Shown here piece by piece: positions 6,092 to 52,044 of a stretch of DNA of 64,000 nt (position 1 is its first letter; each line of letters begins with the position of its first letter). Made by a program: the position numbers and the translations under genes. The DNA is from a phage: the NCBI GenBank assembly GCA_025677605.1, contig GCA_025677605.1_4110.1; one strand, given 5' to 3'. Below the pieces are notes generated by a model. The model was not told the DNA's origin. It ran no database searches and worked only from the letters and a program-made list of their open reading frames with translations.

Positions 6092-7504
6092 TTATTTCAC
6101 GTTAAAAATCGAAGTGGCTTTTTGTAAAGCATGTACTTCAGACTGTTGATTGTCTACCATCATCATTGTGTCCTTGACATGCTCCGCATTTTGCTGTACT
6201 GAACGGTCCATCATATTAACACTCTCGGTAACCTGAAGGATTGCAATGCTTTGTTGTTCAGCCATTATAGCTAAATCATCAATGAACTGCAAGAGAGAAT
6301 CAACATTTTTTACAATAGAATCAATATCACTTGCAGTTTCGTTGATTTGTTCTATTCCTTGGTTGTTGTTTTTTACAGAGTTATCAACGATTTCTTTAAT
6401 TTCTTTACTACATGCATCACATTTCATTGCTAAGTTACGAACTTCCTGTGCAACAACAGAGAATCCACGTCCATGTTCACCCGCTTTAGCAGCCTCAATA
6501 CTGGCATTTAAAGAAAGAATATTAGTCTGGAAAGCAATAGTTTCTATATTTTTGAGTATAGCAACTATAGCATTAGAATCTTCTTTAATTCTATCCATCT
6601 GCTCTTTGCAATTATTAATACTTTCAATTGCATTAGTACTGGATTCTTTTGTAGTTTTAACCATACTTTTTGCAGTATTGGAGTTATCAGATGTATTTGC
6701 AGATGTAGCACTTAATTCTTCCATAGCAGCAGCGATTTGAGTAAGTGCCTGTCCTTGTGTTTCAGTTCTGAAAGCTAAATCATTACTTTTACTTTCGAGA
6801 TGATAGGAGTTGCTTTTCATTGACTGAACTGTAATTTGTACTTGTTCAATTGCCTCACGCATAGCTGATATTGTTTTACTAAAAGTCTGTGCAAATTCTG
6901 AGTTGAAATGATTATTTTGTATTTCTAAAGTAATATTGCCGTCTTCAGAATTCACCGAATGGGCAATTCGTTGAATTTCATCTGCTTCATTTGCATCTTT
7001 CTCCATAATATACGCAACGTACATCAGAACTATTGCCTGTACTACTACATATATTGCGTGCTCTATAATGTGCCATAACGAAATATGGTGAAAAGAAAAC
7101 ACGAATAATATTGGAATTCCAGCACCCTGTAACAATCCAAATAATAAATGATGTATAGCAATCAGTACTGAACCTGCTAATACACAACGCCAGTCACGCC
7201 ATACAATCAATAAACTTAAAAAGACAAAAACTGTAAAGTGCCATTCCACCATCCCTAAGCCAAGATGTATTAGTAACGCACTCCAGCACATCACATTTAT
7301 ACTTAACAACGTTCGAGTGAACGCATTACTTTCAACAAATAGTAAAGGAGTTAGCATTACTAATAATAAAACTGCACCGATTAGTGCAATAATAAAACTA
7401 CCATGAACAACACCGGAAACTAAAGTAACAGCAAATAAAGCCCCTATACAACATAGTACTAAATTATCGGCTTTTTTGCGTATATTTTCTAAATTACTTT
7501 TCAA
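6092..7504 (-). CDS. methyl-accepting chemotaxis protein-like (N-terminal multi-helix His-rich membrane domain, C-terminal MCP signalling domain)
   Basis: 470 aa; signalling-domain signature [37 protein letters not shown]; about 6 hydrophobic helices in first 170 aa. Confidence 0.8.
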
Positions 7505-15506: not shown

Positions 15507-15732
15507 AGTGTTCGCTCATTTCATTCATATATTCATAGCACGATAGGTATATAATTTTTTTAATCATAAAAGACATATCAGATTTATCACTGTCCTCTGC
15601 AATACGAAAAATATAACGCATATTAGCAAAGATATAAAGAGGTATATCAGATGCTTCAGTACCAGAAAATATATCTATAATAAACCCATAACTGAAATCC
15701 GATGCTGGTGCTTGTTCAAAAGTATTGTCCAT
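15496..15732 (-). CDS. hypothetical small protein
   Basis: 78 aa ORF in array. Confidence 0.4.
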   Translation of the reverse strand: MDNTFEQAPASDFSYGFIIDIFSGTEASDIPLYIFANMRYIFRIAEDSDKSDMSFMIKKIIYLSCYEYMNEMSEHYDL

Positions 15733-15922
15733 TTTTCATCCTTATAATACCCAATAGGTACTTAATATACGTCTCAACTGAAGCCTCCTGGTATTGTGTC
15801 CCTATGTACATCAGTAACTGTAATTCCGACACGTCATTTTGATTGGAAGACCTGATTGCAGTGAACATTTGAGCACTGTATTGGTTAAGAATATCTTGCA
15901 TGTCTCTGTGTCTTATACCCAC
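15716..15922 (-). CDS. LGT-motif family small protein
   Basis: 68 aa; MYIGTQYQEASV. Confidence 0.5.
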   Translation of the reverse strand: MGIRHRDMQDILNQYSAQMFTAIRSSNQNDVSELQLLMYIGTQYQEASVETYIKYLLGIIRMKNGQYF

Positions 15923-16140
15923 GGTGACTCCCCCTTTCCTTGAACTTTATTCTGAATTAATTTCTGAAGGTTAAAAATGTAATCTTTCATCACAACCTCT
16001 TGATAATTAGTTCCAAGAAAATGATTCAACTTGTAATCATGATATGGTCGCCTCTTCTTCAAAAGGGGATGAAATGTATTCCATTTTGTGTAAATGTCAG
16101 AACACATCCTGTAGTACTGGTGTTTTGGAATATACTTCAT
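15913..16140 (-). CDS. LGT-motif family small protein
   Basis: 75 aa; HFLGTNYQEVVM. Confidence 0.5.
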   Translation of the reverse strand: MKYIPKHQYYRMCSDIYTKWNTFHPLLKKRRPYHDYKLNHFLGTNYQEVVMKDYIFNLQKLIQNKVQGKGESPWV

Positions 16141-24624: not shown

Positions 24625-25013
24625 TTAATAGGGTATTCCGTTTCATTCACTACATACGACATAATCCATCCGTAATGGATAGGATGATATTTGTCTGAAT
24701 CAGGAATAAAATATAAAGCTGTACTGGGATTATAACTGAAGAAATCCCTCTCGTCAAATGTTAATCTGGCTAACTTAATTTTCCTTGGAATTGCATGAGG
24801 ACGAACTGCATTCTTTACACAGAATATACCATCTTTGTATTTTGGTTCGATAACACCCAATGCACTCTGGATTAACTCCTGAAAGACTAAATTGATTTGT
24901 GCAAATGAATCCTTGTTGTTATGCATTTCGTGCCATAAATCTCGTCTTGCATTTAACATCATTATTACTGGTCTAAGATCCTGTACTATTGTTAGATTCT
25001 GCATTGTATTCAT
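24612..25013 (-). CDS. hypothetical protein
   Basis: 133 aa ORF. Confidence 0.45.
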   Translation of the reverse strand: MNTMQNLTIVQDLRPVIMMLNARRDLWHEMHNNKDSFAQINLVFQELIQSALGVIEPKYKDGIFCVKNAVRPHAIPRKIKLARLTFDERDFFSYNPSTALYFIPDSDKYHPIHYGWIMSYVVNETEYPIKWER

Positions 25014-25230
25014 TTATCTCATTCTGTAACTTAACAACCAAAATTTGCGTATGAATTTTTCGCTCAAGGTGCTTGATAAATTTCTGTACCATTTCTTCTT
25101 GTACTGATGTACCAAGATAAAATAACATATTAAATTCTGATAATCGCAGAGCAAAATCTTCATCGCCCCCCTGTAAACAAAAATCCCTGTACTTCGATGC
25201 GTACAAATGATGGTTTACATTTTTGTACAT
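24973..25230 (-). CDS. LGT-motif family small protein
   Basis: 85 aa; FYLGTSVQEEMV. Confidence 0.5.
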   Translation of the reverse strand: MYKNVNHHLYASKYRDFCLQGGDEDFALRLSEFNMLFYLGTSVQEEMVQKFIKHLERKIHTQILVVKLQNEINEYNAESNNSTGS

Positions 25231-25433
25231 TTAGACTCCTTTGGTGTGCATACTATCTCTGTTCGTAAAGCCCTTATGTATGCATCAACGAATTGTGGCT
25301 GTGCTCTCGTTCCTAGATAAAATAATAAATCGAACTCTGCCATTTTAACATTAAAAGGATCTGAATCTACATTTCGAATAAACTGTCTGTACTTCAATTC
25401 ATATCCGTTAGGCATCTTCTTGTATACTATCAT
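25215..25433 (-). CDS. LGT-motif family small protein
   Basis: 72 aa; FYLGTRAQPQFV. Confidence 0.5.
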   Translation of the reverse strand: MIVYKKMPNGYELKYRQFIRNVDSDPFNVKMAEFDLLFYLGTRAQPQFVDAYIRALRTEIVCTPKESKCTKM

Positions 25434-25752: not shown

Positions 25753-26109
25753 TTATACGTAAATTGGATGAATATTTTGAAGGAAATGCTTAGAAATATT
25801 CATACATGATATCATCTGCCTTTGTACTTCCTTCATCTCTTTGTATGTCAACCCAAAAGAATCATCGTATACTAACATGTACTGAAACTCTTCTTCTTCA
25901 GAGATATCAACTAGATTCGGTACTGCTATCGTATTTTCATATGATTTGATACCTTCTACCCAATAGAAACAATTATCAACTTTATTGTACTCAAATATCT
26001 TAACCCCAGGCCCACCCTGTACATTGGTCAACGCAATGAAACATGTATTCGCTCTTTTTATACAATTGATCTTACGCATTATCGCATTATCTCCATCTCT
26101 CTCCGTCAT
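25753..26109 (-). CDS. FQ-family-like protein
   Basis: 118 aa; EEEEFQYMLVY. Confidence 0.55.
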   Translation of the reverse strand: MTERDGDNAIMRKINCIKRANTCFIALTNVQGGPGVKIFEYNKVDNCFYWVEGIKSYENTIAVPNLVDISEEEEFQYMLVYDDSFGLTYKEMKEVQRQMISCMNISKHFLQNIHPIYV

Positions 26110-26332
26110 CGCAAGAGTACTGGTACGTTGTCGTTAGGGTAGGAATCATGTTCGTAATCGGCATATTATTCACAATAACCGTTACGGGCATCATAACCGT
26201 CTCTTTTCTACTCTGTCCTGTCTTTGTGCAATTCATCTTGTGCATTTCATCTGAATCCAGATACGCTAATACAAACGGTGCAATCCCAAGAACAATACAC
26301 AAGACGATAAGGAAATTTAAAAATTTTAACAT
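26087..26332 (-). CDS. small membrane protein
   Basis: 81 aa; N-terminal hydrophobic helix FLNFLIVLCIVLGIAPFVLAY. Confidence 0.45.
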   Translation of the reverse strand: MLKFLNFLIVLCIVLGIAPFVLAYLDSDEMHKMNCTKTGQSRKETVMMPVTVIVNNMPITNMIPTLTTTYQYSCDDGERWR

Positions 26333-26370: not shown

Positions 26371-26601
26371 CTACAATAGAGTACTGTCAACTGCTTTGTT
26401 CTCTATTATACTCATTAAACCCCAAATTAGATAACGAACACTATCAGCTTGATAGTTAGTACCTACTGTGCATTTTAAAATTAACTCATCTTTCAGTACT
26501 GCACGTTCTTCTTGGGATATAGGAAGAGAATTTATTTGTTTTATTTGTGGTTGTAAAGTATTAATAAGCTTGCAGTACTCTTCGAATGATAATCTTTTCA
26601 T
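26371..26601 (-). CDS. LGT-motif family small protein
   Basis: 76 aa; KCTVGTNYQADSV. Confidence 0.5.
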   Translation of the reverse strand: MKRLSFEEYCKLINTLQPQIKQINSLPISQEERAVLKDELILKCTVGTNYQADSVRYLIWGLMSIIENKAVDSTLL

Positions 26602-26948: not shown

Positions 26949-27170
26949 TTAAACACCTATTCCATTAGCAATAGCAGTACTTAACGCTAACAAATACTTC
27001 TGTACTGCTTGCTCTTGATGATCTGTACCTAAAAGTATATACACCCATAATTCACTGTAGTGTACATCTTCTGTATAAGGGTTGTTGTAACTTTTTGATA
27101 ATATAGCATCAAATTCAGATGCATGAACCCTTGTGAACTTAAGAATATCTTGTTGTGTTATGATTCTCAT
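26949..27170 (-). CDS. LGT-motif family small protein
   Basis: 73 aa; ILLGTDHQEQAV. Confidence 0.55.
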   Translation of the reverse strand: MRIITQQDILKFTRVHASEFDAILSKSYNNPYTEDVHYSELWVYILLGTDHQEQAVQKYLLALSTAIANGIGV

Positions 27171-27382
27171 AGCTTTTCCTGTATAAGCTTCTTAAGTATT
27201 TCTATGTGTGAATTAACAGTTCTTTCTTGATGCTGTGTTCCTAAGAGTATCAGTACTATCATCTCTGAACGCAAAAGATTTTTTTCAAGTTCCCCTATAT
27301 CAGTTCTTGTATCAAGTACTAAAAATTTGTGATTATTCTTTCTGAATAGTTCTAAGTACTCTTGATTTGATATTGTCTTCAT
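27167..27382 (-). CDS. LGT-motif family small protein
   Basis: 71 aa; LILLGTQHQERTV. Confidence 0.55.
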   Translation of the reverse strand: MKTISNQEYLELFRKNNHKFLVLDTRTDIGELEKNLLRSEMIVLILLGTQHQERTVNSHIEILKKLIQEKL

Positions 27383-27609
27383 AGTTTATCCCTGATGCCA
27401 TTTAAAAGTGCTCTAATATGCTCCTGTACGAATTTGTACTGACTGTCTGTTCCTAGAGTGAGTAACAATCTTAAATCTGAACTTTTGATATGATATTCTA
27501 AATCATTATTTGATTCTTGCCTCAGTTTCTGAAAGGATGAGAAGTTTGCTGCCATTAGTTCAATGTATTCTGCTGTTCCTAGGGGTTTGTGTATGTGCTG
27601 TCTGTGCAT
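27379..27609 (-). CDS. LGT-motif family small protein
   Basis: 76 aa; LTLGTDSQYKFV. Confidence 0.55.
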   Translation of the reverse strand: MHRQHIHKPLGTAEYIELMAANFSSFQKLRQESNNDLEYHIKSSDLRLLLTLGTDSQYKFVQEHIRALLNGIRDKL

Positions 27610-27815
27610 TTTAATTGTATTACCCTTTTAAGTGTATTAATATAATCCACGATGATGTGTTCTTGATAGTTAGTTCCTATAGTAGCTAGAACATAGATTT
27701 CACTTATTAGAATATTTTTTTCATCCTGTGATAATTCTTCTGACCAGCTACGATGCAACTTTGGAATTAAACTACTTAATAGTTGGTTGTATTCAGTAGG
27801 TGAAATGATTTTCAT
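27579..27815 (-). CDS. LGT-motif family small protein
   Basis: 78 aa; LATIGTNYQEHII. Confidence 0.55.
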   Translation of the reverse strand: MKIISPTEYNQLLSSLIPKLHRSWSEELSQDEKNILISEIYVLATIGTNYQEHIIVDYINTLKRVIQLKCTDSTYTNP

Positions 27816-28027
27816 TTACATCTTCTCAGTACTGATTCTTTAAGTTCATCGATGTAGTCCTCAACAAATTGTTCTTGTAGGTTTGTTCCGAGATGTAACA
27901 GTACTCTTAAATCTGCTCTAAGTACTTCTTTGTCATCTTCATCTATATCAGACAGTGATATGTTTAAGAATTTACTTGAATTCTCTATAAGTAATATTAC
28001 TTCATCACCTTCGCTTAAAATTTTCAT
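27812..28027 (-). CDS. LGT-motif family small protein
   Basis: 71 aa; LHLGTNLQEQFV. Confidence 0.55.
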   Translation of the reverse strand: MKILSEGDEVILLIENSSKFLNISLSDIDEDDKEVLRADLRVLLHLGTNLQEQFVEDYIDELKESVLRRCK

Positions 28028-28239
28028 AATCTTTGTGTTTTCCTCGACAGTAGGTACAGGTAACGTTCAGTGCATTGTTCTTGATAGTTTGTTCCTAATA
28101 AATGAACTAATTGTTGTTCAGCTATAGAAAGCTGTTTATCTTCATAACAAGCGTATCGTTGTTTCCTATGGTATTCTTTATTGATAACATCAAGGATGAT
28201 AACACCGTATTCGTCATCTGTCAAGTGTTTCATGTGCAT
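28024..28239 (-). CDS. LGT-motif family small protein
   Basis: 71 aa; VHLLGTNYQEQC. Confidence 0.55.
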   Translation of the reverse strand: MHMKHLTDDEYGVIILDVINKEYHRKQRYACYEDKQLSIAEQQLVHLLGTNYQEQCTERYLYLLSRKTQRL

Positions 28240-28471
28240 TTCTTTTTCTTATATGTTTAGTTAAAAGGTATATTAGTTTTCTTACGTACTCGTCTTGATA
28301 GTTAGTCCCTAATAGTGCAAGAAGTTTTGCTTCAACTAAAGCTAATTGTCGTTCTTCAAATGTGTGTTCCAGAATGTACTTGGGGTTTGATTTTTTAGAA
28401 ATTGCACTATTAGTCTTCATTATAATCTTATGATATTCATTGACTGTTAAGATTTTTATATATTTGGTCAT
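28214..28471 (-). CDS. LGT-motif family small protein
   Basis: 85 aa; LALLGTNYQDEYV. Confidence 0.55.
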   Translation of the reverse strand: MTKYIKILTVNEYHKIIMKTNSAISKKSNPKYILEHTFEERQLALVEAKLLALLGTNYQDEYVRKLIYLLTKHIRKRNAHETLDR

Positions 28472-28727
28472 GTATCTTTTCCTGAATAGTCATTTTAAGA
28501 TATCTAAGAATCGATCGAACATAATACTCCTGTCTATCGGTTCCAAGAAAGTACAGGAGTTGTTGATATAATACTTCTGCACTCCTTGCAGCAGGGGTTT
28601 GATTTGGGTCTTTTGGAAGTTGATTTGTATGTTTTCTGGATTTAATTATTCTTTCTTTTATTTCATCGTCTGTTAAGTATATCATTTGCATTTTATGTTC
28701 CTCACATGAATTGTTTGGATTAAACAT
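28437..28727 (-). CDS. LGT-motif family small protein
   Basis: 96 aa; YFLGTDRQEYYV; start likely internal. Confidence 0.5.
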   Translation of the reverse strand: MFNPNNSCEEHKMQMIYLTDDEIKERIIKSRKHTNQLPKDPNQTPAARSAEVLYQQLLYFLGTDRQEYYVRSILRYLKMTIQEKIHDQIYKNLNSQ

Positions 28728-28918
28728 TCAATCCAAGATGTAACATATCTTGTTTGATATTGTGTGCCTAAGAGACTCTGCATTTTAAACTCTGCTTCAA
28801 GTTCATATCTCTTTTCTATCGTAAAGCTTAAATGACCATATTCTGCATCGTATCTTCTCAGTGATTCCCCAATTCTATCAAATCTTTCTGCTAAGTTGAT
28901 GTTATTCACAGTATTCAT
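28682..28918 (-). CDS. LGT-motif family small protein
   Basis: 78 aa; SLLGTQYQTRYV. Confidence 0.55.
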   Translation of the reverse strand: MNTVNNINLAERFDRIGESLRRYDAEYGHLSFTIEKRYELEAEFKMQSLLGTQYQTRYVTSWIECLIQTIHVRNIKCK

Positions 28919-29178
28919 CGATCAGTACACCTCAGTGGTTGGGTCATTTGATAAAAGTACAGCTTACCTCTGATTTCCATTAACAACTCGGCTATGACGC
29001 GATTTACTTCTGTCTCTTGATAGTTTGTTCCTAAGAAGACACCCATCTTTAACTCACGATGCATAATCATCTTCTTACTGTGTTGAATTTCTTGGCTGTA
29101 ATAGATTGCATTACGTTTAGGTGAGATTTTTGCTAGTCGCTCGTTATATTCATCTTGACTTAAATTAATCATTTGCAT
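28915..29178 (-). CDS. LGT-motif family small protein
   Basis: 87 aa; VFLGTNYQETEV; N-terminus MQMINLSQDEY. Confidence 0.55.
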   Translation of the reverse strand: MQMINLSQDEYNERLAKISPKRNAIYYSQEIQHSKKMIMHRELKMGVFLGTNYQETEVNRVIAELLMEIRGKLYFYQMTQPLRCTDR

Positions 29179-29393
29179 TTACTTTGGACCTCATTTTGAA
29201 GTGCATTAATGACCTTCAGTACAGCACTCGCTTGATAGTTTGTTCCTAAGACTGAAAGCATCTTGATCTCATTTACTACAATCCACTTATTTGATTGTTC
29301 AATAATGTGACTTTCATAAATGGCCTTGCGTAATGAATAAGTTTTTGCAAGACGTACATAATATTCATCTTTACTTAAATTAATCATTTGCAT
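29169..29393 (-). CDS. LGT-motif family small protein
   Basis: 74 aa; SVLGTNYQASAV; N-terminus MQMINLSKDEY. Confidence 0.55.
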   Translation of the reverse strand: MQMINLSKDEYYVRLAKTYSLRKAIYESHIIEQSNKWIVVNEIKMLSVLGTNYQASAVLKVINALQNEVQSKCK

Positions 29394-29602
29394 TTACTTT
29401 TAACCTCTTTCTGGAGTGCATCAATCCATAGGTCTATATACGTTTGTTGATAGTTTGTGCCTAAGAGTGCCTCTACATAGAGTTCAGCTACCTTTGCGTG
29501 CTTTAGGTCAACAGGGATGCTCTTATCGCTTGATAACATTCTCCTTCTGCTGGTGCATGTTTTCAGAAGCCTGATGTATTCAACACCTTGTAATTTTCTC
29601 AT
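29384..29602 (-). CDS. LGT-motif family small protein
   Basis: 72 aa; ALLGTNYQQTYI. Confidence 0.55.
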   Translation of the reverse strand: MRKLQGVEYIRLLKTCTSRRRMLSSDKSIPVDLKHAKVAELYVEALLGTNYQQTYIDLWIDALQKEVKSKCK

Positions 29603-29814
29603 TCTCTGGATATCACCTTGTTACGTAGACTTGCTAACCATGCGTCAGTATAGATGTTTTGATAGTTTGTCCCAATGAAGATAGATAGCTTCATTTCAGT
29701 TATTATAACACATTTGTCCACTTGTGCAATAGATTTGTTTAAAGAAATACTAGAAACTTTTGCTTGTATAGTTCGCAACAGCCTGTAATATTCATACCCA
29801 CTAAGGATTTTCAT
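29599..29814 (-). CDS. LGT-motif family small protein
   Basis: 71 aa; IFIGTNYQNIYT. Confidence 0.55.
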   Translation of the reverse strand: MKILSGYEYYRLLRTIQAKVSSISLNKSIAQVDKCVIITEMKLSIFIGTNYQNIYTDAWLASLRNKVISRE

Positions 29815-30061
29815 TCTCTCGTCTCCAGACTTCCGTTCTTATATGTTGTTGATATGCTTCCAGATAGTTCTCTATTGCCTTAGAGATTGTTTGTGTATCG
29901 TCGCCCGTCATCAGTACAAGCATCTCTGCTTCACAGTGTATAAGTCTGCTAATATCATTAGTGAGTTTATCAGATACCGTATCATAGTGTTTGTGGATTA
30001 GTTTCTGAAATAGTTTAACGTACATAATGTGATTTATTCTGGATCGCATTGTCTTTTCCAT
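29801..30061 (-). CDS. LGT-family-like small protein (diverged)
   Basis: 86 aa; VLMTGDDTQTIS at the family motif position. Confidence 0.45.
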   Translation of the reverse strand: MEKTMRSRINHIMYVKLFQKLIHKHYDTVSDKLTNDISRLIHCEAEMLVLMTGDDTQTISKAIENYLEAYQQHIRTEVWRRENENP

Positions 30062-30285
30062 TCTCTTTTGGCCTGTCGGGTTTTATACGCTACAAGGTTT
30101 CTTAGTGCATTGATATAACGATCAGTGAAGATATCTTGTTTATTAGTTCCAACGAATTTAAGAAGAAACACGTCACCATTAACTACATCATTCTCAGGGG
30201 AAGGATAAAGTTCATTGTTCTTGCGAAGGGTGTTTAGTAAAGAGAATAGGGCAGATTGATACTCAGTGCTTGATAATACTTTCAT
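30034..30285 (-). CDS. LGT-motif family small protein
   Basis: 83 aa; KFVGTNKQDIFT. Confidence 0.55.
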   Translation of the reverse strand: MKVLSSTEYQSALFSLLNTLRKNNELYPSPENDVVNGDVFLLKFVGTNKQDIFTDRYINALRNLVAYKTRQAKREWKRQCDPE

Positions 30286-30509
30286 TAGTTCATTCCCTTT
30301 CTTTCTATATGTTTCATAAGAACATTAAGATACTCACCCACAAACCTATTCTGATACTGCGTCCCCATGAATTCAAACAGCCATACTTCAGCAACCATTT
30401 CTTCAATTTCATTCCAAGATAAGTACATCATAGTGAAGTAAATGTGGTTCTCTTTTTGAGATGCACTCCTTGAGCGAGCCTCGTATTCAAAGTTATTAAT
30501 GCAGTTCAT
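30285..30509 (-). CDS. LGT-motif family small protein
   Basis: 74 aa; EFMGTQYQNRFV. Confidence 0.55.
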   Translation of the reverse strand: MNCINNFEYEARSRSASQKENHIYFTMMYLSWNEIEEMVAEVWLFEFMGTQYQNRFVGEYLNVLMKHIERKGMN

Positions 30510-30718
30510 AGTTTACTCCTGATGTATTTCTCAAGAGCTATTAGATACTCTTGGACATAAGATTTCTGGTGGTCAGTTCCTAAGAAGACACCCAGAAGTA
30601 ATTCTTTTTCCATAACTTTTGATAAGTATACATCATCCCTGTCTGCATATATCAGCAAGATTTCAATCTGCTTAGAATTGTAACGTTTCCTATATTGCTC
30701 TGGTGTTAATATAATCAT
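30506..30718 (-). CDS. LGT-motif family small protein
   Basis: 70 aa; VFLGTDHQKSYV. Confidence 0.55.
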   Translation of the reverse strand: MIILTPEQYRKRYNSKQIEILLIYADRDDVYLSKVMEKELLLGVFLGTDHQKSYVQEYLIALEKYIRSKL

Positions 30719-30924
30719 AGTTTACTCTTTATATCTTCAATTAAAAATCCAATACAATCATTGACATACTCTTCCTGAAAGTTAGTCCCCAGTACAGCCA
30801 ACATGCGATACTCTGCTGACCTTATCGCTCTTTCAGTTTTTGGTAAGTTACGTGGTATAGTTACCATCAATTCAAGATACTCCACCATACGACTCAATGC
30901 TTGTCTTTGTGTTATAGTTTTCAT
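30715..30924 (-). CDS. LGT-motif family small protein
   Basis: 69 aa; AVLGTNFQEEYV. Confidence 0.55.
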   Translation of the reverse strand: MKTITQRQALSRMVEYLELMVTIPRNLPKTERAIRSAEYRMLAVLGTNFQEEYVNDCIGFLIEDIKSKL

Positions 30925-31121
30925 AATTTACACCTCGCTCGTATGTCAGCTTTCAAAGATTCCAAATAGTGCGTTACCCACACTTCCTGATAGTTGGTTC
31001 CCATCGTAATCAACAGGTACAACTCAACTCTTTCTAAGTGCACATTGCTTTGGTAAATCCTTGCCGTGTTTTTACGTAGTATATGATGATATTCATCTTG
31101 GGTTAATGTACGCATTTTCAT
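30921..31121 (-). CDS. LGT-motif family small protein
   Basis: 66 aa; ITMGTNYQEVWV. Confidence 0.55.
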   Translation of the reverse strand: MKMRTLTQDEYHHILRKNTARIYQSNVHLERVELYLLITMGTNYQEVWVTHYLESLKADIRARCKL

Positions 31122-31315
31122 AGTTTACCATTTATCTCTAAACATAACTCTTTTACATATAGTTTAACATATTCATTTTGTAAGTTAGTTCCTAAGAATA
31201 GTTCCATAACTAATTCACGTTTATAGGCATTACCACGTTTATGAGACTTATACATTATCATAGCCATGTTATTGATAAGTCTTTCGTGATGCTCTTCTTG
31301 TGTTAAAATACGCAT
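31118..31315 (-). CDS. LGT-motif family small protein (first gene of array)
   Basis: 65 aa; LFLGTNLQNEYV. Confidence 0.55.
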   Translation of the reverse strand: MRILTQEEHHERLINNMAMIMYKSHKRGNAYKRELVMELFLGTNLQNEYVKLYVKELCLEINGKL

Positions 31316-31349
31316 AGGGCAAATTCCATAGGTTCATATATGAAAAAAC

Positions 31350-31378
31350 ATCATACCCCATATGAGGCATGATGTCAA
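31350..31378 (-). promoter_or_regulatory. sigma70-like promoter driving the LGT array
   Basis: minus strand TTGACA, 17 nt spacer, TATGAT; about 30 nt upstream of ATG at 31315. Confidence 0.5.
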
Positions 31379-31381
31379 GTG

Positions 31382-32203
31382 TTAAAGCTTACCCATGTAA
31401 GTAAGTTCTTCCATAATAAATTTTAGTCCAGCTTCGTCGGTGAGTTCAGTACAGCCATCTTTGATTTTAACATGTTGCATATGATTAATTAAATTAGTAT
31501 ACTTCAACATATCCTCAAGGTCAGCAGCTTCAACTGAGTTTTCAAACAGTACAGCTATGATTTCTTCAGAATCGAACCTATTGTTATATTTGAATAGTTC
31601 ACGACGATTTGTTAAATTATGAGTAACTCCGTATTTGTAAACAACTTCACTATTGTGGATGAACTTATTGACATAGAAATAAGCTTCATGCGAACCATTG
31701 AATGTCTTACGCTTATAACAATCTGGGCAGTTTGTTATATTACCATTTTCAACTATATGACACATTTTTCGTTCAAAAATACAACCACATTTACATTCAA
31801 GATTGCATGTGTAATTACCATATACTCCATGTCTATTTGATTTACCTGACGGAATATACCCATTACATCTTATATCATTTCCCTGAAATTCTAGAATGCA
31901 ATTAGCAACGTAAACTATATCTTTATCAGTATATCGTATACGAGAAATATTATTAGCTTTCATCAAATAATTAGCTGACCTTGTAAGTAAAACACCATTA
32001 TATTCATAAAGGATTGGTGTTTTATTTCCTATATATTCCGATGATTTTTTGATAGCATATCCTAAGATTTTTATCGATGTGTGTTTATTTGAAATTTCAT
32101 TTGTATAAAATTTCGGTGTTTTAATATTATGAGTGTTGTAAATTACATTTATATTTTCAGCCAACATATAATTGAATGTACGACCGCCGCGTATAATTTG
32201 CAT
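31382..32203 (-). CDS. possible GIY-YIG-like nuclease with Cys-cluster (zinc-binding) region
   Basis: 273 aa; AYFYVNKF...VVYKYGVTHNLTNRRELF resembles GIY...YIG...R pattern; CNLECKCGC...CPDC cluster; assignment tentative. Confidence 0.5.
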   Translation of the reverse strand: MQIIRGGRTFNYMLAENINVIYNTHNIKTPKFYTNEISNKHTSIKILGYAIKKSSEYIGNKTPILYEYNGVLLTRSANYLMKANNISRIRYTDKDIVYVANCILEFQGNDIRCNGYIPSGKSNRHGVYGNYTCNLECKCGCIFERKMCHIVENGNITNCPDCYKRKTFNGSHEAYFYVNKFIHNSEVVYKYGVTHNLTNRRELFKYNNRFDSEEIIAVLFENSVEAADLEDMLKYTNLINHMQHVKIKDGCTELTDEAGLKFIMEELTYMGKL

Positions 32204-51534: not shown

Positions 51535-52044
51535 TTAAGAGTACTTTTTAAAATATTTTATTATTGTTTCCTTTGTAACTCCAAATTTTCTACCCAATGC
51601 AGTAGCACCATAAACGCGATCCCCTGGCTTATAATGTGTTATAATGTATTGTGTATCGTCGGCGGTCAAACGTGCCTTATCGTTATCATATCCCGTTAAA
51701 CGTGGTTTAACTAATCCAGAATCAAACGCATGTTTAACATTTTCGCTATTGGTTGCCCATTCCAACGCGGTGTAATGATTGTTCGCCTTTCCCTTTAAAT
51801 GATTAACTTGAACTATCTTATAGTGAGTTTTTGCAGCCCATGCGATTTGTTCCGCAGTAGGCGGTGATAGATAGTTATTAGCAACCAATCTATGAACAAA
51901 ATGATCCCCATCGTTTAACGATACTCTTTGATAACCTTTTTCGGTTATACGTGGTTTAAGATTGGTTGTAGTGCCAATCTTTCTAACATCCCCATACTCG
52001 CTAACTTCATATAAATTATTTTCTTTTAGTACCTTCCATTGCAT
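51535..52044 (-). CDS. HNH homing endonuclease
   Basis: 169 aa; LYEVSEYGDVRK...KGYQRVSL...HFVHRLVANNY typical of phage HNH endonucleases. Confidence 0.75.
   Translation of the reverse strand: MQWKVLKENNLYEVSEYGDVRKIGTTTNLKPRITEKGYQRVSLNDGDHFVHRLVANNYLSPPTAEQIAWAAKTHYKIVQVNHLKGKANNHYTALEWATNSENVKHAFDSGLVKPRLTGYDNDKARLTADDTQYIITHYKPGDRVYGATALGRKFGVTKETIIKYFKKYS

What the first reader, a model, noticed from the sequence alone, without database searches (positions are those of the whole stretch)
26949..31315. Tandem array of about 25 small paralogs (65-95 aa) with an L-G-T-N-Y-Q motif
Twenty consecutive coupled genes share an N-terminus like MKILSxxEY and a C-terminal core [LF]-L-G-T-[NDQ]-[YH]-Q-x-x-x-V...Y-[IL]-x-x-L. 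They are driven by one promoter at 31350-31378. Further copies are embedded in the FQ array at 15716, 15913, 24973, 25215 and 26371, while FQ members sit in the LGT zone at 25408, 25753 and 26605, indicating module shuffling between the two families. I do not recognise this family.
Basis: partly seen in the sequence, partly recalled or inferred. Interest (0 to 1): 0.75.

Follow-up and report, generated by a model that had tools for sequence, protein, structure and literature searches.

The report
Tandem small-protein gene family in jumbo coliphage
A giant E. coli phage carries 20 back-to-back genes (plus 5 scattered copies) for one family of tiny four-helix proteins of unknown function, probably made early in infection; the array is real and conserved, but similar arrays have been noted in these phages before.

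Summary
The window comes from a Rak2/121Q-like jumbo coliphage (Asteriusvirus; 95% identical to phage A4). On the minus strand, 26949-31315 holds 20 consecutive ORFs of 65-96 aa that align over their full length. All 19 junctions overlap, and most starts have a weak Shine-Dalgarno or none, so the genes are probably translationally coupled. AlphaFold gives a very confident four-helix domain (pLDDT 96) with no significant PDB match. Pfam, NCBIfam and PADLOC find nothing; the family is PHROG 4148, "unknown function". It occurs only in Asteriusvirus isolates and a few uncultivated relatives. The array is syntenic across the genus with 20-29 slots. Paralogs are old (20-53% identity), selection is purifying (dN/dS about 0.4), and some slots carry swapped alleles. 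It lies directly downstream of an immediate-early region and is absent from the phAPEC6 virion proteome. My best guess, which is inference only, is a co-expressed set of diversified intracellular binder proteins for host takeover or counter-defence. Tandem arrays in 121Q and phAPEC6 were mentioned in 2017 and 2020, so this is an uncharacterised member of a known kind.

The parts
31347..31378 (-). Sigma70-like promoter TTGACA-N17-TATGAT (31378..31350), overlapping a 13-bp-stem hairpin plus T-run (31376..31347), in the 66-nt spacer upstream of slot W1
   Evidence: Conserved in A4 and PBECO4. Replaced by a different sigma70-like promoter in 121Q, ELP-22, UE-S1 and CMSTMSU.
31118..31315 (-). W1, 65 aa, first gene of the array
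   Evidence: HMM E 3e-20; phrog_4148 E 6e-15
30921..31121 (-). W2, 66 aa
   Evidence: HMM E 2e-22; ATGA overlap with W1
30715..30924 (-). W3, 69 aa. Holds a divergent patch compared with A4 (72% aa identity).
30506..30718 (-). W4, 70 aa
30285..30509 (-). W5, 74 aa
30034..30285 (-). W6, 83 aa
29801..30061 (-). W7, 86 aa. The most divergent copy in the array (motif MTGDDTQ). Start codon uncertain.
29599..29814 (-). W8, 71 aa
29384..29602 (-). W9, 72 aa. This is the member used for the structure model. Its allele is only 60% identical to the A4 allele.
29169..29393 (-). W10, 74 aa. With W11 it is the youngest duplicate pair.
   Evidence: 198-nt repeat, 72% identity
28915..29178 (-). W11, 87 aa
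   Evidence: HMM E 6e-28
28682..28918 (-). W12, 78 aa. Exists in two allele classes among relatives (85% versus 47% identity).
28437..28727 (-). W13, 96 aa from the longest ATG. The true start is probably the internal MQM at about 28691 or 28685.
28214..28471 (-). W14, 85 aa
28024..28239 (-). W15, 71 aa. Its N-terminal codons (H-L-T-D-D) create the internal promoter-like match at 28224-28196.
27812..28027 (-). W16, 71 aa, acidic (pI 4.4)
27579..27815 (-). W17, 78 aa
27379..27609 (-). W18, 76 aa
27167..27382 (-). W19, 71 aa
26949..27170 (-). W20, 73 aa, last gene of the contiguous array. An FQ-family gene follows after 2 nt.
26371..26601 (-). W21, 76 aa, outlying copy
   Evidence: HMM E 5e-14
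25215..25433 (-). W22, 72 aa, outlying copy
   Evidence: HMM E 1.5e-8
24973..25230 (-). W23, 85 aa, outlying copy
   Evidence: HMM E 8e-9
15913..16140 (-). W24, 75 aa, a copy embedded in the FQ array
   Evidence: HMM E 8e-12
15716..15901 (-). W25, 61 aa (68 aa if read from a GTG start at 15922), a copy embedded in the FQ array
   Evidence: HMM E 1e-9
31382..32203 (-). Context: a 273-aa homing-endonuclease-like gene inserted at the 5' edge of the array. It is not a family member.
   Evidence: phrog_681 'endonuclease', E 4e-14. The A4 allele is 63.5% identical despite identical flanks. A 53% homologue sits 5' of the array in L009. The gene is absent from 121Q, ELP-22, UE-S1 and the Salmonella phage.

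Best explanation
SHOWN: This is a multigene family of small (about 70 aa), soluble, single-domain four-helix proteins. Among isolated phages it is found only in Asteriusvirus jumbo phages. It has 20 tandem copies plus 5 dispersed copies. The duplications are ancient, and each slot is kept in the same order across the genus under purifying selection.

INFERRED FROM THE ANATOMY: The array is one polycistronic unit. It is read by host sigma70 RNA polymerase from a promoter at its 5' edge, and possibly also by read-through from the immediate-early region just upstream. Translation is by stop/start coupling, because every junction overlaps and most starts have a weak Shine-Dalgarno sequence or none. 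All paralogs would then be made together, early, and in similar amounts.

The conserved residues are the N-terminal MK(I/L)L(S/T)xxEY, one face each of helices 3 and 4, and the L-G-T-N-Y-Q-E loop. These form the scaffold: the N-terminus pairs with the G-T of the loop, and N-x-x-E fits a helix N-capping box. The C-terminal K-L / K-C-K is constrained because its codons also encode the next gene's ribosome-binding site and ATG.

The exposed surfaces differ between slots, especially helix 2 to the first half of helix 3, and net charge runs from -8 to +8.

INFERRED FUNCTION (the weakest step): each slot is an intracellular binder or inhibitor with its own target. Together they would form a fixed repertoire for host takeover or counter-defence. 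The repertoire would be updated by slot gain and loss and by allele exchange between co-infecting phages. The homing endonuclease at the edge of the array may help that exchange.
For: - Family and coupling. Only 8 of 20 starts have a Shine-Dalgarno core match of at least 4 nt, and 5 have none.
- Fold: pLDDT 96.3, with helices at 6-14, 17-25, 31-45 and 52-71 and a beta-bridge between residues 2 and 49. Independently predicted models of 121Q, UB and PBECO4 members have the same fold (TM up to 0.93).
- Conservation: the conserved pattern is on the buried faces plus the loop, while columns 14-39 vary. pI ranges from 4.4 to 9.7.
- Early context: the 31.3-54 kb zone has 55 small genes with a median 85-nt spacer, and 14 perfect plus 8 near-perfect sigma70 promoters on the same strand. 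The array itself has no spacer at all.
- Promoters: a sigma70-like promoter lies 5' of slot 1 in seven of the eight genomes, in two different versions.
- Not in the virion: none of phAPEC6 gp467c-gp489c are among the 62 virion proteins found by MS, although a 4.7 kDa protein was detected.
- Evolution: the array is syntenic with 20-29 contiguous slots. Paralogs are 20-53% identical. Orthologue median identity is 66-72%, against 85-93% for the neighbouring early genes. dN/dS is 0.36-0.49, against 0.18-0.21.
- Allele swaps: patches of 61-64% identity sit in a 98-100% identical background between the window and A4.
- Endonuclease hot-spot. There is a precedent for a homing endonuclease reshaping anti-defence loci (PMC13096335).
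Against: - There is no direct evidence of any target, of the timing of expression, or even of the transcript.
- dN/dS stays below 1 even in the variable region (0.44-0.54). Every slot is conserved in order across the genus. This looks like stable, subfunctionalised genes rather than a fast arms-race locus.
- No member resembles any known anti-defence or host-takeover protein by sequence or fold.
- The promoter at 31378-31350 overlaps a terminator-like hairpin. Slot 1 in this window has almost no Shine-Dalgarno sequence.
- Co-translation in equal amounts would fit a multi-subunit assembly just as well.
Confidence: 0.4

Rival explanations
1. The paralogs co-assemble with each other, and perhaps with the FQ-family proteins, into a non-virion hetero-oligomeric structure or scaffold inside the infected cell. 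Translational coupling would then serve to keep the subunits in fixed proportions.
For: All 19 junctions overlap and Shine-Dalgarno sites are weak, which favours roughly equal output. Every slot is retained in order across the genus. The LGT and FQ families co-occur and interleave even in a very divergent lineage. Size and scaffold are uniform.
Against: Slot number varies from 20 to 29, and truncated copies are tolerated. Surfaces and charges differ greatly between slots. I know of no precedent for an assembly built from about 25 distinct paralogs. I could not run a multimer prediction.
Confidence: 0.15
2. They are small nucleic-acid-binding regulators (DNA or RNA), each with its own sequence preference, that tune the phage or host expression programme.
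For: They are small helical early proteins. 12 of 25 have pI above 8.5. Another jumbo phage, phage G, has a roughly 35-copy expansion of small zinc ribbons, proposed to be transcription factors or structural DNA-binding proteins (PMC7824862).
Against: Seven members are acidic or neutral, with pI down to 4.4. The model has no helix-turn-helix geometry: helices 3 and 4 are joined by a 6-residue loop that is tied to the N-terminus. No DNA-binding fold or family is hit. There is no conserved basic surface.
Confidence: 0.12
3. The array is largely neutral filler left by tandem duplication, which let the genome grow to fill an enlarged capsid. This is the idea proposed for 121Q and phage G by Hua et al. 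2017.
For: PMC5646251 and PMC7247149 interpret the arrays in this way. Slot number varies, and some copies are truncated.
Against: dN/dS is 0.36-0.49 with dS of 0.5-0.7, so the proteins have been maintained for a long time. Paralogs are only 20-53% identical, yet each still has an orthologue in the same position across the genus. AlphaFold models are uniformly confident. The family persists in a lineage with no remaining nucleotide similarity.
Confidence: 0.05
4. They are packaged internal or injected proteins, like the T4 internal proteins. The conserved N-terminus would act as a capsid-targeting and protease-cleavage signal.
For: The N-terminus MK(I/L)L(S/T)xxEY is conserved on otherwise diverse small proteins. 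This recalls the T4 capsid-targeting sequence (my own knowledge). 121Q and phAPEC6 have an inner body whose proteins are unassigned.
Against: None of the array's products are in the phAPEC6 virion proteome. In the model the N-terminus is part of the fold (residue 2 is beta-bridged to T49), not a detachable leader. The genes follow sigma70-type promoters in the early region, not late ones.
Confidence: 0.04

Closest known systems
PHROG 4148 (with the short-form PHROG 28039), function unknown
   Same: It is the same protein family. All ten members tested match over their full length at E 1e-11 to 1e-21.
   Different: The PHROG entry is only a sequence cluster. It carries no structure, function or description of the array.
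Tandem gene arrays noted in phage 121Q and phage G (Hua et al. 2017, PMC5646251) and in phAPEC6 (Wagemans et al. 2020, PMC7247149)
   Same: Same phage genus and same phenomenon. The published remark may refer to this array or to the larger FQ array next to it.
   Different: [quoted passage not shown] Here the copies prove to be old (20-53% identity), under purifying selection and syntenic. There are two unrelated families, not one.
Lineage-specific expansion of about 35 small zinc-ribbon proteins in Bacillus phage G (Iyer et al. 2021, PMC7824862)
   Same: A jumbo phage carrying dozens of copies of one small domain of unknown role.
   Different: The domain is different: a zinc ribbon versus an all-helical domain with no metal-binding motif. 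There is no homology. The phage G family was proposed to bind DNA.
Multigene families and 'genomic accordions' of large eukaryotic DNA viruses (poxvirus K3L amplification; poxvirus Bcl-2-like and ASFV MGF families)
   Same: Tandem paralog families of small proteins in a large virus, with varying copy number. They are usually host-interaction genes (review PMC13359090; the rest is my own knowledge).
   Different: This is an analogy only. Accordion copies are recent and nearly identical. Here only W10/W11 keep DNA-level similarity (72% over 198 nt). No host target is known.
Host-takeover clusters of small early proteins (Bacillus phage SPO1 gp37-60; T4 early genes such as AsiA, Alc, Arn, Dmd)
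   Same: Small proteins transcribed by host RNA polymerase at the start of infection, lying next to or within the early region (my own knowledge; the layout here is).
   Different: Those clusters contain unrelated proteins, mostly with their own promoters. Here one fold is repeated 20-29 times in a single coupled operon.

Membership tests
PHROG 4148 | Significant full-length match to the family profile | tested here: met
   10 of 10 members match at E 1.4e-11 to 1.8e-21, covering profile positions about 1-72 of 74.
Any curated domain of known function (Pfam-A, NCBIfam, PADLOC) | A match above the curated threshold, or a weak match that recurs across members | tested here: not met
   All 25 members were scanned. 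There are only single-member hits, all below cut-off, and no family is hit twice.
Any solved structure | Sequence-profile or fold similarity to a PDB chain | tested here: not met
Helix-turn-helix DNA-binding proteins | Two helices joined by a tight 3-4 residue turn, a recognition helix, and usually a basic surface | tested here: not met
   In the model, helices 3 and 4 are separated by six residues that include a beta-bridge to residue 2. There are no HTH hits in the PDB or Pfam. pI is 4.4-9.7.
T4-type internal head proteins | Present in the mature virion | tested here: not met
   phAPEC6 gp467c-gp489c are absent from the 62-protein virion proteome.
T4-type internal head proteins | Cleavable N-terminal capsid-targeting sequence and late transcription | tested here: inconclusive
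   The N-terminus is conserved, but it is modelled as part of the fold. The upstream promoters are sigma70-like, not late-type. Cleavage was not testable.
Genomic accordion (recent adaptive amplification) | Near-identical tandem copies whose number changes on short time-scales | tested here: not met
   Paralogs are 20-53% identical. Only one pair keeps a DNA repeat. Slot number does vary from 20 to 29 among species, but each slot has an orthologue.
Same superfamily as the neighbouring FQ family | Profile-profile similarity | tested here: not met
   hhalign probability 0.3%, E 0.19 over 10 columns.
Early (host-RNA-polymerase-dependent) phage operon | Sigma70-type promoter upstream, co-orientation with early genes, transcript present early in infection | tested here: inconclusive
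   The promoter consensus and the layout are met. No transcript data exist for this genus in the library I searched.

The most novel reading that the evidence does not exclude
The LGT array, probably acting together with the interleaved FQ arrays, may be a hard-wired repertoire of about 25 inhibitors built on a previously unseen small helical fold. Each slot would be dedicated to a different host defence or housekeeping target. This would be a phage counterpart of the poxvirus and ASFV immune-evasion multigene families. It would be refreshed by homing-endonuclease-assisted allele exchange at the edge of the array. If true, one locus would yield dozens of new anti-defence or host-takeover proteins and a new binder scaffold.
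Probability: 0.25. Interest if true: 0.75.

Novelty: new member of a known kind. Interest (0 to 1): 0.45.

Why it matters
About 31 kb of this phage, roughly 9% of the genome, consists of two unrelated tandem paralog families of unknown function placed right after the immediate-early genes. The LGT family is the more tractable of the two. It is about 70 aa long, its structure is confidently modelled, it has no known relatives, and each slot is individually conserved. If the slots are target-specific binders, the locus would help explain why these phages carry so many genes, and it would supply many new host-interaction proteins. If they instead assemble together, that would point to an unknown intracellular structure in jumbo phages that do not form a nucleus. 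Either way, the published "filler from duplication" reading does not fit the selection data.

Tried and rejected
- Known-domain searches on all 25 members (Pfam, NCBIfam, PADLOC): only scattered noise.
- PDB sequence-profile searches with 25- and 68-sequence profiles: nothing.
- Search for distant relatives. The exhaustive HMM search of 1.84 billion representatives gave only 94 hits, all small proteins with the LGT motif. A broader profile added no new taxa. tblastn at E<=1 hit 36 phage records, all 310-386 kb Escherichia or Salmonella jumbo phages; those I examined are classified as Asteriusvirus. There was no match in 5,426 complete E. coli genomes.
- Fusion proteins as functional clues. P0172 (269 aa) is an in-frame run-on of an LGT gene into the next gene, seen in phages EC.P1 and UB. 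Its C-terminal part is a separate RaK2-conserved protein of unknown function, so it gives no clue.
- LGT-FQ homology (both have an aromatic-Gln motif): rejected by hhalign.
- FQ fold as a context clue. The AlphaFold model is only partly confident (pLDDT 72), and Foldseek found nothing.
- Positive selection in the variable region: not found (dN/dS 0.44-0.54).
- Internal promoter at 28224-28196 (11 of 12). It is produced by the codons of the conserved N-terminal motif (H-L-T-D-D), so I treat it as a coding by-product.
- Virion or internal-protein idea: rejected on the phAPEC6 proteome.
- Literature. I found no functional, transcriptomic or structural study of this family or of any Asteriusvirus early region.

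Full report
**Where the window comes from.** The 4.4-kb region is 95.3% identical to Escherichia phage A4 and 78-85% identical to 35 other Escherichia or Salmonella jumbo phages of 310-386 kb, including 121Q, PBECO4, phAPEC6 and Sharanji; every one I examined is classified as Asteriusvirus. All genes under the match are annotated "hypothetical protein".

**Check of the observation.** The minus strand between 26949 and 31315 carries 20 consecutive ORFs of 65-96 aa.
- They align from end to end, not only at the motif. The consensus is MK(I/L)L(S/T)xxEY ... E..L..(L/F)LGTNYQE..V..YI..L...I..K(L/C).
- T49 is invariant. G48, Q52 and L63 are at least 90% conserved.
- An HMM built from the 20 scores them at E 1e-19 to 1e-28.
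- The ORFs at 25408, 25753 and 26605 belong to the FQ family.

**Gene organisation.**
- All 19 internal junctions overlap: ten ATGA, one TAATG, two 10-nt ATGCAAATGA overlaps, and six longer ones that depend on which ATG is used.
- Only 8 of 20 starts have a Shine-Dalgarno core match of at least 4 nt, and five have none. Translation of most slots therefore probably depends on termination-reinitiation coupling. This is an inference.
- The conserved C-terminal residues (S-K-L, S-K-C-K) are encoded by the same bases that form the next gene's Shine-Dalgarno sequence and ATG (for example AGGAGTAAACTATGA and AAATGCAAATGA). Part of the C-terminal "motif" is thus a dual-coding constraint.
- At the DNA level only W10/W11 keep a long repeat (198 nt, 72%). 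The other copies share only the roughly 30 nt that encode LGTNYQ, with a period of about 210-215 nt.

**Wider layout of the window.**
- From about 54 kb down to 31.3 kb, the minus strand carries 55 small genes with a median spacer of 85 nt. It has 14 perfect and 8 near-perfect TTGACA-N16/17-TATAAT promoters. This is a textbook immediate-early region.
- The LGT array follows on the same strand with no spacer at all.
- After it come about 27 kb of FQ-family genes (median gap -1) with a few promoter-bearing gaps.

**The claimed promoter.** The site at 31378-31350 is TTGACA-N17-TATGAT (11 of 12). The same bases also form a 13-bp hairpin followed by a T-run, which looks like a terminator for the gene upstream.

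That upstream gene (31382-32203) matches a phage endonuclease family (phrog_681) and behaves like a homing endonuclease:
- It is absent from 121Q, ELP-22, UE-S1, CMSTMSU and the Salmonella phage.
- PBECO4 has a different gene at this position.
- The A4 allele is only 63.5% identical although the flanks are 99-100% identical.
- A 53% identical homologue again sits directly 5' of a divergent LGT array in a metagenomic contig.

Genomes without the insertion have a different sigma70-like promoter (TTGACT-N17/18-TATTAT/TATATG) and a strong GGGAG Shine-Dalgarno sequence in front of slot 1. The Salmonella phage has lost that promoter and keeps only a more distal one. So a host-type promoter 5' of the array is the rule, but its sequence is not conserved. 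"One promoter" is plausible but unproven.

The only strong internal match (28224-28196) is made by the codons of the conserved N-terminal motif, so I regard it as a by-product of coding.

**The protein.**
- AlphaFold2 with the 25-sequence alignment gives mean pLDDT 96.3 and pTM 0.80. There are four helices (6-14, 17-25, 31-45, 52-71) and a beta-bridge between residue 2 and T49.
- BFVD models of other members (121Q, UB, PBECO4, slurp01) superpose with TM up to 0.93. No other viral protein matches convincingly.
- Foldseek against the PDB gives no match at E 0.001 or better (best E 2.6). Profile searches of PDB sequences give nothing.
- The conserved positions lie on one face each of helices 3 and 4, at the N-terminus, and in the loop. 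Columns 14-39 (helix 2, loop, start of helix 3) are variable. pI ranges from 4.4 to 9.7 and net charge from -8 to +8.
- I read L-G-T-N-Y-Q-E as structural. Gly ends helix 3, Thr pairs with the N-terminal strand, and N-x-x-E forms an N-capping box for helix 4. This is an inference. A shared binding site at this polar cluster cannot be excluded.

**Family limits.**
- Pfam, NCBIfam and PADLOC give only single-member noise for all 25 proteins.
- PHROGs places them in phrog_4148 (and phrog_28039), function unknown.
- The exhaustive profile search of 1.84 billion representatives finds 94 proteins, all small and carrying the motif.
- The word-indexed searches return only E. coli or Escherichia-phage entries, on contigs up to about 350 kb.
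- tblastn at E<=1 against 50,697 phage records hits 36, all of them 310-386 kb Escherichia or Salmonella jumbo phages. RaK2, K64-1, GAP32, CBB and PA5oct are absent.
- Complete E. coli genomes hold none.
- More than half of the representatives are under 60% identical to any slot in the eight genomes I examined.
- One of them lies on a 41-kb contig with GC 28.7% and no nucleotide similarity to the window. On it, 11 LGT and 19 FQ genes are interleaved.

The family is therefore limited to this genus among isolates but extends to uncultivated relatives. Its association with the FQ family is old.

**Evolution.**
- Contiguous copy number is 20 in the window and in A4, 23 in 121Q, 25 in UE-S1, 27 in ELP-22 and Salmonella phage SD-15, 29 in PBECO4, and 27 in a metagenomic contig.
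- Order is conserved. Nearly every window slot has a reciprocal-best orthologue in the same position, and relatives have extra slots intercalated.
- Paralogs within the window are 20-53% identical.
- Orthologue median identity is 66-72%, against 85-93% for the upstream early genes. dN/dS is 0.36-0.49, against 0.18-0.21.
- By region, dN/dS is 0.36-0.42 for the N-terminus, 0.44-0.54 for the variable part, and 0.28-0.36 for the C-terminal scaffold.
- This shows purifying selection throughout, more relaxed than in the neighbouring genes, with no sign of pervasive positive selection.
- Between the window and A4, most slots are 94-100% identical. W9 is 60%, W3 72%, W12 83% and W19 87%. These correspond to 100-200-nt patches of 61-64% identity.
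- The window's W9 allele is 83-85% identical to those of ELP-22 and PBECO4. W12 has two allele classes (85% versus 47%). Alleles are evidently exchanged between lineages.

**Tests of specific ideas.**
- The two families are unrelated (hhalign probability 0.3%), and I found no chimeric LGT-FQ protein. "Module shuffling" therefore reduces to ancient interleaving at the gene level.
- In phAPEC6 the array is gp467c-gp489c. None of these is among the 62 virion proteins detected by MS, although a 4.7-kDa protein was detected. This argues against a T4-internal-protein-like role.
- The filler hypothesis in the literature fits poorly with long-term purifying selection and slot-by-slot orthology.
- The FQ model (pLDDT 72) also has no PDB match, so the neighbours give no functional clue.

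**Interpretation.**
- Shown: a real, conserved, genus-limited family of small four-helix proteins arranged as an overlapping-gene array immediately downstream of the immediate-early region. It is not virion-associated.
- Inferred: early or delayed-early polycistronic expression with coupled translation.
- Inferred more weakly: a repertoire of binders with slot-specific surfaces on a common scaffold, used for host takeover or counter-defence.
- Rivals: co-assembly into a complex, nucleic-acid binding, neutral filler, or internal proteins. The evidence for and against each is in the structured fields.
- A recent paper shows that a T-even homing endonuclease drives amplification of anti-defence loci (PMC13096335). 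The endonuclease hot-spot at the edge of this array makes a similar role in slot or allele turnover conceivable. That is an analogy only.

**Novelty.** Hua et al. 2017 (PMC5646251) and Wagemans et al. 2020 (PMC7247149) mention tandem arrays in 121Q and phAPEC6 in one sentence each. The 2026 jumbo-phage review repeats this. The family is also a PHROG. I found no paper that separates the two families, or that describes their structure, selection, expression signals or function. I therefore rate it an uncharacterised new member of a known kind (lineage-specific paralog expansions in large viruses), of moderate interest.

Noticed in passing
window 35-26946 (minus strand): A second, larger tandem family (the "FQ" family). 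It has about 45-50 genes of 110-215 aa with an invariant F-Q and the motif (E/D)(E/D)x(F/Y)FQxS(T/L). The genes are also tightly packed (median gap -1). There are no Pfam hits, and members are split over several PHROGs of unknown function. The AlphaFold model is only partly confident (pLDDT 72), and Foldseek finds no PDB match. The family is unrelated to LGT by hhalign.
   Followed up: partly
window 6092-7504 (minus strand): A 470-aa ORF embedded in the FQ array. It has a multi-pass membrane N-terminus and a clear methyl-accepting chemotaxis protein signalling domain (Pfam MCPsignal, E 6e-37; phrog_8572). This is an unusual gene for a lytic phage.
   Followed up: partly
window 31316-54000 (minus strand): 55 small genes with spacers of about 85 nt, carrying 14 perfect and 8 near-perfect TTGACA-N16/17-TATAAT promoters. 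This looks like a very strong immediate-early region made of single-gene units.
   Followed up: partly
window 31382-32203 (minus strand); L001 24436-25254; L009 340-1146: A homing-endonuclease-like gene (phrog_681) at the 5' edge of the array. Its alleles are highly divergent (63.5% between two phages that are otherwise 99-100% identical here). It is absent from several relatives, and PBECO4 has a different gene at the same site.
   Followed up: partly
window 57674-63456 (plus strand): A third paralog family beyond the strand switch at about 54-57 kb: one Kelch-repeat and four RCC1-like beta-propeller proteins. These correspond to the virion "DNA condensation proteins" of phAPEC6.
   Followed up: partly
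window 51535-52044 (minus strand): A 169-aa ORF with a NUMOD4 motif (E 5e-7). It is probably another homing endonuclease, lying inside the early region.
   Followed up: no
window 26087-26332 (minus strand), promoter-like site 26390-26362: An 81-aa hydrophobic, probably membrane, protein (phrog_8826) between LGT and FQ members. A TTGACA-N17-TATAGT match with a TG extension precedes it and lies inside the 3' end of slot W21.
   Followed up: no
L011 (Logan ERR4503900 contig, 20.2 kb shown): An uncultivated lineage with GC 28.7% and no nucleotide similarity to the window. It has 11 LGT and 19 FQ genes interleaved, including 117-aa proteins that contain an LGT-like domain. Its 236-aa neighbouring gene matches no isolated phage.
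   Followed up: partly
P0172 (phages EC.P1 338002-338808 and UB 185239-186045): An in-frame run-on of an LGT gene into the following gene, giving a 269-aa ORF. The C-terminal 170 aa are conserved (40% identity) in Klebsiella RaK2-like phages, which lack the LGT domain.
   Followed up: partly
L001 23769-23921; L002 12202-12363; L005 (CMSTMSU) throughout: Truncated slots (50-53 aa) in A4 and 121Q suggest that individual copies can decay. The CMSTMSU record (marked UNVERIFIED) shows many broken ORFs in the array, which probably reflects assembly errors.
   Followed up: no
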